A DNA stretch of 63,211 nt, filler included, from Octopus bimaculoides (taxonomy: Eukaryota): NCBI RefSeq assembly GCF_001194135.2. It is 8 parts of 8 records of this genome, joined end to end, with 100 filler letters (N's around TTAATTAATTAA, not from the genome) between each part and the next. Parts side by side here need not be neighbours in the genome. Positions count along the whole stretch, not along the records: positions 21,289 to 24,918 come from NC_068993.1; positions 25,019 to 30,791 come from NC_069010.1; 6 more parts are not named here. One strand, written 5' to 3'. The notes beneath the pieces are model-generated. The model was given only the letters and a program-made list of their open reading frames with translations, did not search any database and was not told where the DNA came from. The translations under genes and the position numbers were made by a program. Positions within the stretch are counted from its first letter, which is position 1. Every line of letters begins with the position of its first letter. This document shows positions 23,317 through 30,464 of the stretch, in pieces.

Positions 23317-23850
23317 ATGACTGTGTAATATCTGAAACAATGGAGCTGTCAAATTAGGTGTGTGTGTGTGTGTTTGTGTGTGTGATGATGAGGGAGAGAA
23401 AGAGAAAGAGAGAGAAACAGAGAAAGAGAGAGAGACAGAGAGACAGAGAGAGAAAGAAAGAGGGAAGTAGCAGAAATGAAAATAATTAAGTCTTGCTTAA
23501 AGTGTTAGTCTTCTTCTTGTTGTTGTTGTTGCTGTTGTTATTAAAGCTGTTTTCGTTAAGCAGTTCGGTCAACAAAGAACTTACGGCACGTAGGGTGGAT
23601 AGCCAATGAAAACAGAGAGAAGCTCACCCACGGTGTTAGCTACCCGGATCTACAATGATTACACAATCTCCGTTAGTTCGTGGATTTGCTGCCGGGAACA
23701 GCATTGTACACTTACTGAACTGGTCTCCTTTCAACACCTACCTATCTGTTCACCGTGGGACGTTAAAGTGTAATGTCCGGCAGAATGAAAAAAAATATAT
23801 ATATATATATAATTATTAAAGTTGAAAAACATCACAAAAATATCACAAAA

Positions 23851-23892
23851 AACTGCTACTCTGAGTTTCACGTTCCCGTTCGTCGAGCAGTT
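23851..23892 (-). ncRNA. Candidate minimal hammerhead ribozyme, variant core, in a Penelope-like repeat
   Basis: Minus strand: AACUGC UCGACGA ACG-GGAA-CGU GAAA CUC-A-GAG UA GCAGUU (stem I 6 bp, stem II 3 bp with GGAA loop, palindromic stem III). Confidence 0.5.
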
Positions 23893-23923
23893 GCGATCAT
23901 CCTTTAATAATAAACTATGTATG

Positions 23924-24891
23924 GATCCAGTTGGTTTGGCTGCTAGCATTTCAAAAACTATAGCTTATCGAAAATTTTAAAATTTGGTACAATATACTTT
24001 TCTAAGCTGAATTGCTAGAGTTATTTCACTTTTTCCAGAAAAATATTTTAAAAAAGTTACAGAGGTTTAAAGTTTGATTATTTTCATCCTGTCAGGATAC
24101 AGGATTTGGACGCTGCCATTTTGTGCGTGTCTGCACATTTTGTCGTCAACATCCTGAATATTGCACGTGTTGCCAATATTTGTAAACAATACGTGTTTTG
24201 TAGTTTGAAGCATTCAATATGGGATAGCACGAACTATTTATCCAAAAAACATTATTTAGCTGTTATTTTTAGCACACCTCACAGACAGAAAGAAACGAAC
24301 AAACAAGTTGTCTTAAGCATTCAATATGCATTTAATGCAAATATGATGAACAACATGTTATATGCGATAAACACATTACAATTTTCCACATGATTTCAAT
24401 ACAGTTTTAACAGAACGATTTGGAAGAATTAGACGAAAGTTCTCCGGTAATTTTCTTTCATGTAAATAAATATTTATGTTAATTCTAAAATTTGACCAGT
24501 TCATTCAAAGCGGAAGTTAAAAATACATTCAATCAATTTCTCGAACAAATTACAATTTTCCTATCTCCAACGCTACATAAATTCACATGCCCAATTGTAA
24601 ACAGATAGGAAAAACAAGTGGTTTCGATATATTTCTCAATGCATGCTTTCTTGCAGACAAAAGAGTTCTCATGTTCCGCTTGTTACTATGGAAACAGACA
24701 TGAATGTGTCTGTGACTTACCATTCACTAAAATTACCCAAAATTTTCAAACTTTAATTGCTAATTCTTTATTTATTGATTTATAACGAAAATGATTTTCA
24801 CTTCATTCATTAGCCAATAAAAATGTATCATTTGATTGAATATGAAATCAATTCGAACAGAATTGATACTGGCAGCCAAACTGACTAGATC
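23924..24891. mobile_element. Non-autonomous DNA transposon with 26-bp imperfect TIRs
   Basis: Left gatccagttggtttggctgctagcat versus reverse complement of right gatctagtcagtttggctgccagtat (21/26 identical). AT-rich interior with no ORF. Confidence 0.6.
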
Positions 24892-25020
24892 TCAAAGTAT
24901 GTATATATATATATATATNNNNNNNNNNNNNNNNNNNNNNNNNNNNNNNNNNNNNNNNNNNNTTAATTAATTAANNNNNNNNNNNNNNNNNNNNNNNNNN
25001 NNNNNNNNNNNNNNNNNNAA

Positions 25021-25180
25021 AAAGTGTATAAGGAACCCTCATGTATAAAGAGCCCCCTAATTTTGGGGGGCTTAAAATTTGGAAAAAAAGGTTTTGTAAG
25101 GGATTATAATACTATCCATGTATAAGAAACTCCCATAATTTTTTAACCTAAATTTTGACAAAAAAGGGTGTATAAACACT
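25021..25180. mobile_element. Decayed pogo/TcMar-like MITE
   Basis: Repeated gtataag..cccc..aatttt subterminal motifs ending aaaaagggtgtataaacac. Confidence 0.4.
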
Positions 25181-25193
25181 TTGTTGTGTAGTG

Positions 25194-25283
25194 GCGCGAA
25201 ATTATAGCCGCCATTGAGGAAGTACTATTCTGCGCATGCGCAGGGGACTTCACCACCGGAAGCCCTTCGAGTGCGCATGCGTA
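25194..25283. promoter_or_regulatory. Housekeeping-type promoter motif cluster (E2F, YY1, ETS, two NRF1)
   Basis: TTTCGCGC (minus, 25194-25201), CAATGGCGGC (minus, 25207-25216), TGCGCATGCGCA (25231-25242), ACCGGAAG (25255-25262) and TGCGCATGCGTA (25272-25283), all within 90 bp. Confidence 0.65.
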
Positions 25284-25708
25284 GTAAAACTGGTACTTAA
25301 AGAGTGAGTTTCACTTTGTTAGGCAGTTGCACGACAGACCTTCTACGTGACAACTCCTCACTCCTCAACGAAGCACTCTTCACTTCGATGGTGATAGCTA
25401 CTTGCTTCTCTGGCAGGCATCAAGGAAGCCCTTAACCTTCCAATACCAAATTACAACTTAATCAGCGGCTGCTATGCTGAATGACAGGAATTGTGAAACC
25501 AAGCATCATCAAAACAAAATAAAACTTATATTTTTATTATGTTGTAAAAATTGTTCTAATGTCTCTTCATATATAATGCTGTTGAAAGGTGATAGAGAGA
25601 GACTAATGCCTCTATGACAACTATCAAACTTTTACAGTTGTTATTAAGATGATGTTTGGAACATACAATGTTATTTTACTAAATTCTTCTTTATTTTAAG
25701 CTATGTTT

Positions 25709-25880
25709 TTTACATCATCTGTTTTCTTCTTTTACATCTTTTTCATCTTTTACATCATCTTTTTTCTTCTTTTAAATCTTTTTCATCTTTTACATCATCT
25801 GTTTTCTTCTTTTACATCTTTTTCATCATCTGTTTTCTTCTTTTACATCTTTTTCATCTTTTACATTATCTGTTTTCTTC
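25709..25880 (+). repeat. ~40-bp pyrimidine-rich minisatellite, about 4 copies
   Basis: Unit tttacatcatctgttttcttcttttacatctttttcatct repeated immediately upstream of the splice acceptor at 25904. Confidence 0.8.
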
Positions 25881-25904
25881 TTCTTGTTCTGTGTGTTGTT
25901 GCAG

Positions 25905-26207
25905 TGTATAACGCATCTGGAGGTCGAAGAACAAAACCTGTGTAACGATGTCTTCAAACTGACTGATTTCCTGGAAGGTCTATTAATGCTGACCAACCTC
26001 GATGTACTCAGCCTGCCCAACACCATCCACGTGAATATCTACCCAGAAGCGCCGTACATGTTGAACCAAGTCCTGCGCTCGCTGACCCGACTGCGCAAGC
26101 TGCACCTTCCATCCTGTAACTTACGGGATTCCCTCCACACAATACTCAGCGGACTCACAAAGCAGAAGACGGCATTCGAATGCCTCAACCTGCGCGACTG
26201 TCGCCTC
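25905..26207 (+). CDS. Internal exon of an LRRC14/PRAME-like leucine-rich repeat protein, 3' end lost in gap
   Basis: Acceptor ...ttgttgcag|TGT after a pyrimidine tract. Open frame CITHLEVEEQ...LTNLDVLSL...LTRLRKLHLPSCNLRDSLHTILSGL...FECLNLRDCRL fits the LRRC14/PRAME degenerate LRR pattern. GC and CpG are elevated relative to the flanks. Confidence 0.75.
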
Positions 26208-26854
26208 NNNNNNNNNNNNNNNNNNNNNNNNNNNNNNNNNNNNNNNNNNNNNNNNNNNNNNNNNNNNNNNNNNNNNNNNNNNNNNNNNNNNNNNNNNNNN
26301 NNNNNNNNNNNNNNNNNNNNNNNNNNNNNNNNNNNNNNNNNNNNNNNNNNNNNNNNNNNNNNNNNNNNNNNNNNNNNNNNNNNNNNNNNNNNNNNNNNNN
26401 NNNNNNNNNNNNNNNNNNNNNNNNNNNNNNNNNNNNNNNNNNNNNNNNNNNNNNNNNNNNNNNNNNNNNNNNNNNNNNNNNNNNNNNNNNNNNNNNNNNN
26501 NNNNNNNNNNNNNNNNNNNNNNNNNNNNNNNNNNNNNNNNNNNNNNNNNNNNNNNNNNNNNNNNNNNNNNNNNNNNNNNNNNNNNNNNNNNNNNNNNNNN
26601 NNNNNNNNNNNNNNNNNNNNNNNNNNNNNNNNNNNNNNNNNNNNNNNNNNNNNNNNNNNNNNNNNNNNNNNNNNNNNNNNNNNNNNNNNNNNNNNNNNNN
26701 NNNNNNNNNNNNNNNNNNNNNNNNNNNNNNNNNNNNNNNNNNNNNNNNNNNNNNNNNNNNNNNNNNNNNNNNNNNNNNNNNNNNNNNNNNNNNNNNNNNN
26801 NNNNNNNNNNCACACACACACACATGTATCAACATACACACACATATAAATAAC

Positions 26855-27060
26855 TAAGGCGGCGAAATGTTTAGCGGTATTTCGTTTGCCCGCTACGTTC
26901 TGAGTTCAAACTCCACCGAGGTCGACTTTGCCTTTCATCCTTTCGGGGTCGATTAAATAAGTACCAGTTACGCACGGGGGTCGATATAATTGACTTAATC
27001 CGTTTGTCTGTCCTTGTTTGTCCCCTCTGTGTTTAGCCCCTTGTGGGCAATAAAGAAATA
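26855..27060 (+). mobile_element. Nin-like-domain SINE with 17-bp TSD
   Basis: gaggtcgactttgcctttcatcctttcggggtcgattaaataagtaccag. TSD ACACACATATAAATAAC at 26838-26854 and 27061-27077. The head appears internally deleted. Confidence 0.8.
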
Positions 27061-27200
27061 ACACACATATAAATAACCACACCCATATGCACGTACACAC
27101 ACAAACATGTATACAAGCCCATAAATGCATGCATACAGTATATACATATAGATAAACACATTGATATATACACACACATAAACATATGTACATATGCACT

Positions 27201-27234
<34 letters not shown>

Positions 27235-27582
27235 CAAACATACACACTGGAACACACTTACAAGCACTGAAAAATACACATACACACATACAGTGACATA
27301 CACATGCAGACAAAAACACATATACACAAACATATGCACATACTAACAATCACACACACATACACTGACAAGCATACACACACACACACACACACACACA
27401 CAGAGGGAAACATAAACACTTGGATCCATATACACACACATACACTCAGACATATGCTACATATCCACATACACACTCAAACCCACGCACACAAACTCAC
27501 AATGCATACACAGACACAAGAACATACAGCTATATGCAAACATGACCCCTAAATTAAATTTCCATTTCCCCCACTAATAAAT

Positions 27583-27613
<31 letters not shown>

Positions 27614-27742
27614 TTATTTTGTATATTTTTCCTGTTGAAAAATAAAACTTTAAAAAATTAAAATCTAAAGAAAAAAAGTCTAAAATTATTTTTTTAACCT
27701 TAAATTTACAAAACAAAACAAAAAAAATGCATCTTCTGTAGC

Positions 27743-27850
27743 TATAGGTGCAGGCGTGGCTGGCTGTGTGGTGAGAGGCTTGCTTCCCAACCACATGTTT
27801 CCAGGTTTCGGTCCCACTGCATGGCACCTTCAACAAGTGTCTTCTACTGT
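27743..27850 (+). mobile_element. SINE family B tRNA-like head
   Basis: ggtgcaggcgtggctggctgtgtggtgagaggcttgcttcccaaccacatg...cccactgcatggcacc. Confidence 0.65.
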
Positions 27851-27856
27851 AGGAGA

Positions 27857-28385
27857 ATCAACTGTTCAAAGGTGGTTTGCAAATTTAAAGCTGGAAAGTT
27901 TAGCTTGGAAGATGACAGTTACAATGGAAGACCTTCAAAATTGGATGAAGATGTTTTGAAGGCAAAAATCAAATGAAATTCAAATATCATGACTAGAGGA
28001 CTTGCTGAGAAGTTAAGGATTTCTAAAATTATGGCTCATGAACACCTTGTGAAGCTAGGATACATTTCTCGCTGTAATGTATAAGTCCCTCACAAACTCT
28101 CAGTAAAGAATTGCTCGGACTGGTATTCCGTTTTGTGATATGCTTTTGAAATGGAATGAAAGGATGCCTTTCTTGAAACAACTTGTGACTGGACTAAGTA
28201 CAAAAAAACTTAGTGTGAAAAAGATCCTGGAGTTTGTATGAGGATCTCCCAAAACAGTAACCAAAGACGAATATCCATGTCAAAAAAGTTATGCTTTGTG
28301 TTCGGTGGGATCATAAAGGGATTATTTATTATGAATTTCTCCCACAAAACCAAAACATTAATCCTGATTTGTACTGTCATTAGCT
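27857..28385 (+). pseudogene. Mariner (SETMAR/Hsmar-like) transposase remnant
   Basis: STVQRWFA / FKAGKFSLEDD..GRPSKLDEDVLK...VPHKLS...LKQLVTG...VMLCVRWDHKGIIYYEFLPQNQNINPDLYCH, read across frameshifts and stops. Confidence 0.8.
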
Positions 28386-28394
28386 CTCTCTCTC

Positions 28395-28584
28395 TCTTTT
28401 ACTTGTTTCAGTCATTTGACTGCGGCCATGCTGGAGCACTGCCTTTAGTCGAGCAAATCGACCCCAGGACTTATTCTTTGTAAGCCTGGTACTTATTCTA
28501 TCGATCTCTTTTGCCGAACCGCTAAGTGACAGGGACATAAACACACCAGCATTGGTTGTCAAGCAATGCTAGGGGGACAAACAC
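28395..28584 (-). mobile_element. SINE family B 3' half
   Basis: Near-identical to 20930-21150. Confidence 0.8.
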
Positions 28585-30213
28585 NNNNNNNNNNNNNNNN
28601 NNNNNNNNNNNNNNNNNNNNNNNNNNNNNNNNNNNNNNNNNNNNNNNNNNNNNNNNNNNNNNNNNNNNNNNNNNNNNNNNNNNNNNNNNNNNNNNNNNNN
28701 NNNNNNNNNNNNNNNNNNNNNNNNNNNNNNNNNNNNNNNNNNNNNNNNNNNNNNNNNNNNNNNNNNNNNNNNNNNNNNNNNNNNNNNNNNNNNNNNNNNN
28801 NNNNNNNNNNNNNNNNNNNNNNNNNNNNNNNNNNNNNNNNNNNNNNNNNNNNNNNNNNNNNNNNNNNNNNNNNNNNNNNNNNNNNNNNNNNNNNNNNNNN
28901 NNNNNNNNNNNNNNNNNNNNNNNNNNNNNNNNNNNNNNNNNNNNNNNNNNNNNNNNNNNNNNNNNNNNNNNNNNNNNNNNNNNNNNNNNNNNNNNNNNNN
29001 NNNNNNNNNNNNNNNNNNNNNNNNNNNNNNNNNNNNNNNNNNNNNNNNNNNNNNNNNNNNNNNNNNNNNNNNNNNNNNNNNNNNNNNNNNNNNNNNNNNN
29101 NNNNNNNNNNNNNNNNNNNNNNNNNNNNNNNNNNNNNNNNNNNNNNNNNNNNNNNNNNNNNNNNNNNNNNNNNNNNNNNNNNNNNNNNNNNNNNNNNNNN
29201 NNNNNNNNNNNNNNNNNNNNNNNNNNNNNNNNNNNNNNNNNNNNNNNNNNNNNNNNNNNNNNNNNNNNNNNNNNNNNNNNNNNNNNNNNNNNNNNNNNNN
29301 NNNNNNNNNNNNNNNNNNNNNNNNNNNNNNNNNNNNNNNNNNNNNNNNNNNNNNNNNNNNNNNNNNNNNNNNNNNNNNNNNNNNNNNNNNNNNNNNNNNN
29401 NNNNNNNNNNNNNNNNNNNNNNNNNNNNNNNNNNNNNNNNNNNNNNNNNNNNNNNNNNNNNNNNNNNNNNNNNNNNNNNNNNNNNNNNNNNNNNNNNNNN
29501 NNNNNNNNNNNNNNNNNNNNNNNNNNNNNNNNNNNNNNNNNNNNNNNNNNNTATATATATATGTATGTATATATATCATCATCTTCGTCGTATGTATGGG
29601 TAGGACGGTTGACAGGAGTCAGCCAGGTAGAAGCCTACCCCAGGCTACAGTGTGTTGTTTTGGCAGGGTTTTTTACAGCTGGATGCCCTCTCTAACAGTG
29701 CTTTTTATGTGGTATTAGCACAGGTGAGGTTAGCTTTGGCATGATTTTTACAGTGTGGACTGGATGCTTTTCACATGGGACGTGTTTTTGTGTCTGTGTT
29801 TGTCCCCACTGCTGGACAAACTGTGCTGGTGGGTTTACATCCCTGTAACTTAGCAGTTAGGCAAAAGTAACTGATAAAATAAATATCAAGCTTTAAAAAA
29901 AATAATAAGTACTGGGGTTGAAACACTTGATTAATATTTCTTCAAGGCTACAGTCTCATGACTGACACAAGAAAAATGAAAAAAAAAAGAAAAAGAAAAC
30001 AAACTCAACAACCAAAACAATGACAATATCTACATATTTATTTATATATCCATAACGTGTATATAACCAACGTGTGTATATATGCATATTATATATATAT
30101 ATGTGTGTATATAATAACTTCAACAACATCTTTCCATGCCAGCATGGGTTATGAACAAAAACATGCATGTTTGTGCATGTATGGGCATTTATGCATGTGC
30201 GTCTATATGACAC

Positions 30214-30244
<31 letters not shown>

Positions 30245-30464
30245 CCGGAGTAAGCATATAAAATGTGCAACAAGGTGGAAAAAAGAGTACTCAAATACCA
30301 GAGGTAGAGTAATATGCTTTATTTAAAAGCAGCAGAAATATAACAAAAGATTGTTACTCGGAGTTTCACGTTCCCGTTCTAACAAAACTGTCCGATGAAC
30401 GGGAACGTGAAACGCCGAGTAACAGTCTTTTTTTATATTTCTGCTGCTTTTAAATAAAGTATAT
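30245..30464. mobile_element. Penelope-like terminal repeat arranged as a fold-back
   Basis: 68-bp arms at 30312-30379 and 30397-30464 (4 mismatches, 17-bp spacer). Each arm carries the 3' part of a hammerhead-like motif followed by AAATAAAG. Confidence 0.6.
30387..30426 (+). ncRNA. Candidate minimal hammerhead ribozyme, variant core
   Basis: ACUGU CCGAUGA ACG-GGAA-CGU GAAA CGCCGAG UA ACAGU. The inverted partner arm has CUCCGAG in stem III. Confidence 0.5.

What the first reader, a model, noticed from the sequence alone, without database searches (positions are those of the whole stretch)
23851..30426. Repeat family carrying a minimal hammerhead fold with a non-canonical C4 core and covarying stem I
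Seen: two loci (23851-23892 minus; 30387-30426 plus) share the layout stem I, YCGAYGA, ACG/GGAA/CGU, GAAA, CUC-N-GAG, UA, stem I'. Stem I covaries (CUGC/GCAG versus CUGU/ACAG), which argues for selected RNA structure. Known: Penelope-like element terminal repeats carry minimal type-I hammerheads, often with a palindromic stem III, that cleave as dimers, and the canonical core is C3-U4-G5-A6-N7-G8-A9. Inference: both copies have C at position 4, which looks like a family trait rather than decay. This may be an undescribed U4C hammerhead variant, or a catalytically dead fold retained for another role, spread by a Penelope-type retroelement.
Basis: partly seen in the sequence, partly recalled or inferred. 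Interest (0 to 1): 0.75.

Follow-up and report, generated by a model that had tools for sequence, protein, structure and literature searches.

The report
Octopus retroelement hammerhead fixed for C4
Both flagged motifs are broken-off tail ends of a common Penelope-like jumping gene in an octopus-like genome, whose hammerhead RNA fold carries C in place of a normally fixed U across the family while an older sister lineage kept the U, which likely makes a slow self-cutter, though cutting is untested.

Summary
The motif is the 3'-end hammerhead of a Hydra-clade Penelope-like element (PLE), on the sense strand 1.1-1.8 kb after its RT/GIY-YIG frame. C4 is a family trait: 1327 of 1587 genomic matches read CCGA. 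The 81 CUGA copies are matched by 84 CCAA copies, so they are CpG decay. Two other organism labels also keep C4. An older sister subfamily has U4 (29 of 30, none C4), so U4-to-C4 most likely happened in the master lineage. Core and stems changed less than flanks across five subfamilies (3/32 vs 40/117), so the fold is probably still selected. Copies run about 38 or 109 nt past the predicted cut, so they were copied from uncut RNA. Their 5' ends pile up at the fold's 5' edge, not at the cut. RNA reads show no ends at the site (weak test). U4C is known from one viroid variant. This scan noted C4 Hydra hammerheads before in other genomes. Verdict: new variant of a known kind; cleavage untested.

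The parts
23853..23890 (-). Copy 1 hammerhead fold: stem I CUGC/GCAG, core U3-C4-G5-A6-C7-G8-A9 (C4 at 23885), 3-bp stem II with GGAA loop, palindromic stem III, predicted cut between 23857 and 23856
23811..23897 (-). Copy 1 whole stump (ends approximate): 5'-truncated 3' end of the older GCAG subfamily, ending in a TA microsatellite; 23897-23891 can pair with about 23848-23842 as a distal extension of stem I
30388..30425 (+). Copy 2 hammerhead fold: stem I CUGU/ACAG, core C3-C4-G5-A6-U7-G8-A9 (C4 at 30393), stem III damaged (CGC-C-GAG), predicted cut between 30421 and 30422
30378..30459 (+). Short arm of the copy 2 insertion (young subfamily), ending about 38 nt after the predicted cut, then TA/TG repeats
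30245..30379 (-).
30222..30244 (.). (TA)n target microsatellite at the long arm's 3' end
   Evidence: TA targets are typical of Hydra PLEs

Best explanation
These are 5'-truncated tail ends of a Hydra-clade Penelope-like retrotransposon whose minimal type I hammerhead fold has C4 throughout the family, and the fold is likely a slow, still-selected self-cutter that would work as a dimer or with the element's protein. SHOWN: (1) the motif lies on the sense strand 1.1-1.8 kb after the RT/GIY-YIG frame, near the 3' end; (2) C4 is the master state, and CUGA copies are CpG decay; (3) an older sister subfamily has U4, a U.U pair at 10.1/11.1 and a NUUA loop, whereas the C4 lineage has A-U and a GGAA (GNRA) loop; (4) inserted copies run through the predicted cut and end about 38 or 109 nt beyond it, in TA repeats, often with an inverted partner. 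INFERRED: (a) U4-to-C4 occurred once in the master lineage, along with a firmer stem II; (b) the fold stayed under selection afterwards; (c) reverse transcription starts downstream of the fold on uncut RNA, so slow cleavage is affordable; (d) the extended stem I hairpin promotes fold-back or template switching, giving the pile-up of 5' ends. UNTESTED: any cleavage. The two window copies are probably inactive relics.
For: Counts CCGA 1327, CTGA 81, CCAA 84 of 1587 (CTGA vs CCAA binomial p=0.88). The old GCAG subfamily shows the same symmetry, about 22 CTG vs 20 CCA in the first 100 of 164 rows (hand count). 22 of 25 distinct sense copies 1.0-1.8 kb behind an EN match (52-100% identity) have C4 (hand count). 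Hydra marks RWK, DKT, CxCX5C, CxxC/CxH. U4 sister: 29 of 30 T4, 0 C4, same tail, one with a related RT. It forms a clade on a flank-only tree (support 0.91) and is more diverged, 0.19 vs 0.04-0.15. Subfamily-level changes: core 1/12 (position 4), stems 2/20, free positions 4/6, flanks 40/117; Fisher p=0.007, and p=0.028 within C4 groups. Distal stem I: upstream TAACAAAA goes with GTTA (23 of 31, no GTGA) and TCRCAA with GTGA (16 of 24, no GTTA). Hydra-2_aMil has the same stem I and stem III with U4. The U4C viroid variant is slower but viable. Dead-core mutants of the Anolis PLE hammerhead still insert, and its cleavage needs protein. Organisms B and C keep C4.
Against: No cleavage was measured. 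RNA-seq (3 runs, 1 study, about 6% read, both strands equal) shows no start/end pile-up and near-even depth across the site; this is weak, since reads come from many decayed copies and none were found for Anolis either. In a deep mutational scan, other single changes in the CUGA turn gave low activity (PMC9901934, passage). The monomer hammerhead fold has a predicted probability under 0.001. The constraint test rests on five related subfamily majorities from 88 of 249 aligned copies, grouped partly by hand, with one weak node (0.41), and the sample was enriched by my own patterns. Stem I co-changes are few events along one lineage. The tree has no true outgroup: U4 as ancestral rests on copy age and on published Hydra motifs found with a descriptor that asked for CUGA.
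Confidence: 0.6

Rival explanations
1. The ribozyme is catalytically dead, and the fold is kept as a binding or stop signal for the element's RT/EN protein.
For: All copies derive from uncut RNA; 0 of 26 tail-selected copies start at the cut, while 16 of 26 start at -20..+10 of C3. Hammerhead activity was dispensable for insertion in vitro. No RNA ends at the site.
Against: G5, A6, G8, A9, G12-A15.1 and U16.1-A17 are unchanged in all five subfamily majorities while N7 and the palindrome centre vary, as expected for catalysis. U4C is reported as tolerated in a viroid.
Confidence: 0.2
2. C4 is compensated (A-U at 10.1/11.1, GNRA loop II, long bulged stem I, possibly a loop II/stem I contact), and the ribozyme cuts at about the normal PLE rate.
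For: The stem II changes accompany C4. A 10-12 bp stem I with a U bulge is kept. Perreault et al. suggest that tertiary contacts offset variant cores.
Against: No tertiary contact was tested; the single A-U contact of minimal hammerheads is recalled only, and my search for it found no paper. Stem II has only 3 bp.
Confidence: 0.13
3. The motif is a decayed hammerhead carried passively; C4 hitchhiked in a successful master copy, and nothing selects the fold.
For: Few independent events; total subfamily divergence is modest.
Against: Core and stems are more conserved than flanks (p=0.007; 0.028 within C4 groups). Paired changes keep stem I. An unrelated Hydra-type element in a metagenome contig also has C4 in an otherwise well-formed fold.
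Confidence: 0.07

Closest known systems
Hammerheads of Hydra-clade PLEs, above all Hydra-2_aMil of Acropora millepora (Craig et al. 2021, PMC8557442; section 11, passages, supplement parts 2-3 with Files S1 and S2)
   Same: 3'-end type I motif; stem I ctgt/acag and stem III actc-n-gagt-a as in Hydra-2_aMil; TA targets; inverted 5' copies; the same protein marks.
   Different: All 26 Hydra rows of File S2 read ctga (the general descriptor asked for it); this family reads ccga, with a 3-bp stem II and a GGAA loop.
Hydra-1_oBim (same paper), the one published octopus Hydra family in File S1
   Same: Same clade; its motif occurs in G000 (79 matches at up to 1 mismatch), which points to Octopus bimaculoides or a close relative.
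   Different: Different hammerhead with T4 in 12 of 12 loci read; its RT-EN is only about 30-43% identical to this family's.
Minimal PLE hammerheads (Cervera and de la Pena 2014, PMC4209133; parts 1-2 of 4 read, one of two supplements searched)
   Same: Short stem I, palindromic stem III, dimer-type design, thousands of solo and inverted copies; low in vitro activity reported.
   Different: The core variant reported in the text I read is U3-A8; the two CCGA strings in the searched supplement lie outside cores.
U4C variant of a viroid hammerhead (Ambros and Flores 1998; seen only as cited in PMC3088659; paper not held)
   Same: Same core change; reported as much less active in vitro yet sufficient in vivo.
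   Different: A rare variant in a replicating RNA, versus the majority state of more than 1300 genomic copies and several subfamilies here.
PAc (Poseidon) hammerhead of Anolis (Frangieh et al. 2024, PMC11167929; parts 1-2 of 4 read)
   Same: Two 3' ends separated by a tail; uncut RNA is the insertion substrate; no RNA-seq ends at the cut.
   Different: Other PLE clade; its hammerhead overlaps the ORF start; its tail is 30-40 nt versus about 70 nt here.

Membership tests
Hydra-clade PLE | RT followed by a C-terminal GIY-YIG endonuclease | tested here: met
   YRDDG and the IVY..Y.G EN motif in one natural frame (L089, L099). Pfam gave no hit on three broken fragments; the call rests on motifs.
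Hydra-clade PLE | RWK and DKT motifs | tested here: met
   RRLRWKAFFF and NSDKTKNLY in L121; definition
Hydra-clade PLE | CxCX5C linker, CxxC and CxH around the conserved E and N, no CCHH | tested here: met
   CNCKDPTSC, CDLCLLEK and NTCRH in L090 and L099; linker pattern in 40, CxxC in 61 and CxH in 62 of 77 EN-bearing loci, some duplicated. Absence of CCHH judged by eye.
Hydra-clade PLE | Insertion into (TA)n; 5' truncation with inverted copies | tested here: met
   (14 of 27 loci inverted, 13 solo, 0 direct within 1.5 kb)
Hydra-clade PLE | Placement in the clade by RT phylogeny | not tested
   Published Hydra proteins were not brought into a tree
Hydra-clade PLE | Canonical (CUGA) hammerhead near the 3' end | tested here: not met
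   Position and fold met; core is CCGA in 1327 of 1587. The paper lists this as a shared trait of PLEs, not as the clade's diagnostic.
Minimal type I hammerhead ribozyme | Three helices around the core, ends in stem I, palindromic stem III | tested here: met
   damaged in window copy 2
Minimal type I hammerhead ribozyme | Core C3 U4 G5 A6 N7 G8 A9, G12 A13 A14 A15.1, U16.1 H17 | tested here: not met
   11 of 12 positions canonical in the C4 subfamily majorities; position 4 is C. Window copy 1 also lacks C3.
Minimal type I hammerhead ribozyme | Site-specific self-cleavage after H17 | not testable with these tools
   No bench assay; RNA-seq uninformative
Non-LTR retrozyme | ORF-less head-to-tail tandem units, each with a hammerhead | tested here: not met
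   0 of 27 loci direct-tandem within 1.5 kb; the motif is attached to an RT-EN frame

The most novel reading that the evidence does not exclude
U4-to-C4 is a selected de-tuning that recurs in Hydra-clade elements. Because their cDNA is primed downstream of the ribozyme, a slower cutter leaves more intact template, and the C4 lineage replaced its U4 sister. The octopus U4/C4 sister pair is then a natural experiment on whether PLE hammerheads help or hinder transposition.
Probability: 0.2. Interest if true: 0.7.

Novelty: new variant of a known kind. Interest (0 to 1): 0.45.

Why it matters
What PLE hammerheads do is open: Craig et al. call it unclear, and Frangieh et al. found cleavage dispensable in vitro. 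Here a prolific lineage fixed a change at a near-invariant core base yet seems to have kept the rest of the fold, and its U4 sister survives in the same genome as a control. This gives a ready pair of sequences for testing cut rate against function. It also shows that CUGA-based searches miss whole high-copy families, and that apparent canonical copies can be CpG-decay products.

Tried and rejected
Rfam scan: no hammerhead among the 150 of 247 rows shown; hits were microsatellite look-alikes. Pfam on three frame fragments: nothing. My first guess of a Neptune-type PLE was dropped after the Hydra marks. Retrozyme reading rejected. U4 copies as an active minority rejected for the ACG-GGAA-CGU lineage (CTGA equals CCAA). 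5' ends made by ribozyme cleavage rejected: 0 of 26 tail-selected copies, 0 of 21 partner copies and 1 of 113 motif-selected copies start at the cut. Run search: no RNA holder listed; three raw RNA runs were laid instead and gave no ends and no splice joints (85 variant rows were not shown, so the share of U4 reads is unknown). An intron ending at stem I, as in Drosophila Penelope, was considered; one search gave no support. Monomer folding does not favour the hammerhead. Literature: hammerhead+U4C gave 1 paper; hammerhead+Penelope+CCGA and hammerhead+CCGA+uridine turn gave 0; octopus+Penelope+hammerhead gave no description of this family in the 4 listed. Lunse et al. 2017 and Ambros and Flores 1998 are not held, and one Cervera supplement could not be searched, so a C4 PLE variant may be in print there. 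No covariance model or R-scape run was made.
Full report
Observation. Copy 1 (minus, 23890-23853) has the core UCGACGA, so it lacks C3. Copy 2 (plus, 30388-30425) has CCGAUGA, but its stem III reads CGC-C-GAG, which weakens the palindrome. Copy 2 is one arm of a 68-nt inverted repeat whose other arm starts at G8 and runs on to 30245. Transcribed whole, this region is predicted to form a -100 kcal/mol hairpin that hides the fold. Neither window copy is a good candidate for activity.

C4 is the family state. The 20-nt core from G5 onward has 1587 exact matches in G000 and 0 for the reversed control. Of these, 1327 read CCGA and 81 CTGA. C4-G5 is a CpG, so decay should give CTGA and CCAA alike; CCAA has 84 matches (p=0.88). 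The older GCAG subfamily shows about 22 CTG and 20 CCA among the first 100 of 164 rows (hand count). Contigs of three runs under two other organism labels list no C-to-T at position 4 at the 5% level; those labels may be close relatives.

The carrier. Copies share a tail ending in one of two places, about 38 and 109 nt past the predicted cut, followed by TA or similar repeats. Long copies place the motif on the sense strand behind an RT/GIY-YIG frame. Among 77 EN-bearing loci, some duplicated and many with short flanks, 25 distinct ones had a sense copy 1.0-1.8 kb downstream; 22 have C4 and 3 have T4 (hand count). An earlier scan note pointed me to the Hydra clade. Its marks as defined by Craig et al. 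are all present: RWK, DKT, CxCX5C, CxxC/CxH and TA targets. The published Hydra-1_oBim motif occurs in G000 but belongs to a different family with T4 in 12 of 12 loci. The genome is therefore likely Octopus bimaculoides or close to it (inference). All 26 Hydra rows in File S2 read ctga, and Hydra-2_aMil has the same stems I and III as this motif.

A U4 sister. A pattern for a divergent stem II found 30 copies; 29 have T4, 1 has A and none has C. They share the family's tail, and one carries a related RT. On a tree of flanks alone (88 of 249 aligned copies kept), they group with support 0.91. They differ 0.19 from their majority, against 0.04-0.15 for four C4 groups. They have U.U at 10.1/11.1 and a NUUA loop; the C4 groups have A-U and GGAA. 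U4 as the ancestral state is inferred from age and from the published relatives; there is no true outgroup. Copy numbers of the two types are not comparable, since older copies escape exact patterns.

Selection on the fold. Across five subfamily majorities, 1 of 12 core positions (position 4), 2 of 20 stem positions, 4 of 6 free positions and 40 of 117 flank positions differ (p=0.007; within C4 groups 0/12, 1/20, 2/6, 22/117, p=0.028). Stem I also extends to 10-12 bp past a U bulge, with upstream and downstream strands changing together between subfamilies; for the two smaller or older groups the gain over shuffled controls was only about 1 kcal/mol. These are a few events on one lineage and do not amount to formal covariation.

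How copies arise. Insertions include the cut site and the sequence 3' of it, so the template was uncut there (inference). In 30 copies chosen by the tail alone, 26 had readable flanks: 16 start at -20..+10 of C3, 0 at the cut, 8 further 3' and 2 further 5'. In several of them the inverted arm joins at the complementary strands of the long stem I (seen), which suggests fold-back of the cDNA. 14 of 27 motif-selected loci are inverted pairs, most with one long and one short arm. This matches the PLE tail pattern and the finding that dead-core mutants of the Anolis element still insert.

Activity. Untested. For: the catalytic bases are unchanged, and a viroid U4C variant is reported as slower yet viable. 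Against: other changes in the CUGA turn gave low activity in a deep scan, the monomer fold is improbable, and 2465 RNA reads laid from three runs of one study show no ends at the site. The last is a weak test: both strands are equally covered, and reads come from many decayed copies. Direct tandems, the usual route to dimers, were absent in 27 loci, though direct pairs 1 and 4 kb apart exist (L064, L065).

Recurrence and novelty. One marine metagenome contig holds a Hydra-type RT-EN (40-47% identity) with a C4 hammerhead and a 7-bp stem I about 135 nt after the stop (L297); it is a single copy. Earlier scan notes report C4 Hydra hammerheads in other genomes and C4 in phage hammerheads (unchecked), and hammerhead-bearing Penelope tail ends in this genome. 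My searches found no paper on a C4 PLE family, but Lunse et al. 2017 and one supplement could not be read.

Papers seen. PMC4209133: parts 1-2 of 4 and one supplement search. PMC8557442: passages, section 11, supplement searches and parts 2-3. PMC3088659: passages and section 8. PMC11167929: parts 1-2 of 4. PMC6765202, PMC9901934 and PMC3907566: passages. bioRxiv 10.64898/2026.07.22.740005: part 1 of 5. Hammerhead numbering and the GNRA label are from my own knowledge.

Verdict. A real, family-wide C4 core in the 3' hammerhead of a Hydra-clade PLE, with a U4 sister lineage as a natural control. New variant of a known kind; interest 0.45.

Noticed in passing
window 37896-38695, minus: Fragment of another Hydra-like RT, 33-47% identical to this family's RT; no attached hammerhead found in 35965-41000.
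   Followed up: partly
L297:2-1540 (marine metagenome contig): Hydra-type RT-EN with a well-formed C4 hammerhead behind it, from an unknown eukaryote.
   Followed up: partly
L198-L227 (G000): Older U4 sister subfamily with U.U at 10.1/11.1 and a NUUA loop.
   Followed up: yes
L125:5024 minus; L073:2511 plus; L118:983 and L129:1607 plus: Other hammerhead-like motifs with canonical CTGANGA cores, one with a CAGCTG palindrome; possibly other PLE families.
   Followed up: no
L348-L377; L001-L030: 5' ends of copies crowd into about 30 nt at the fold's 5' edge, and inverted pairs mostly have one long and one short arm.
   Followed up: partly
L065:5252: 18-45% of RNA reads carry G5A, more than the roughly 5% among strict genomic matches; may reflect older or a few well-expressed copies.
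   Followed up: no
window 46548-46591, plus: Weak U6 snRNA fragment, 31.6 bits, below the gathering score.
   Followed up: no
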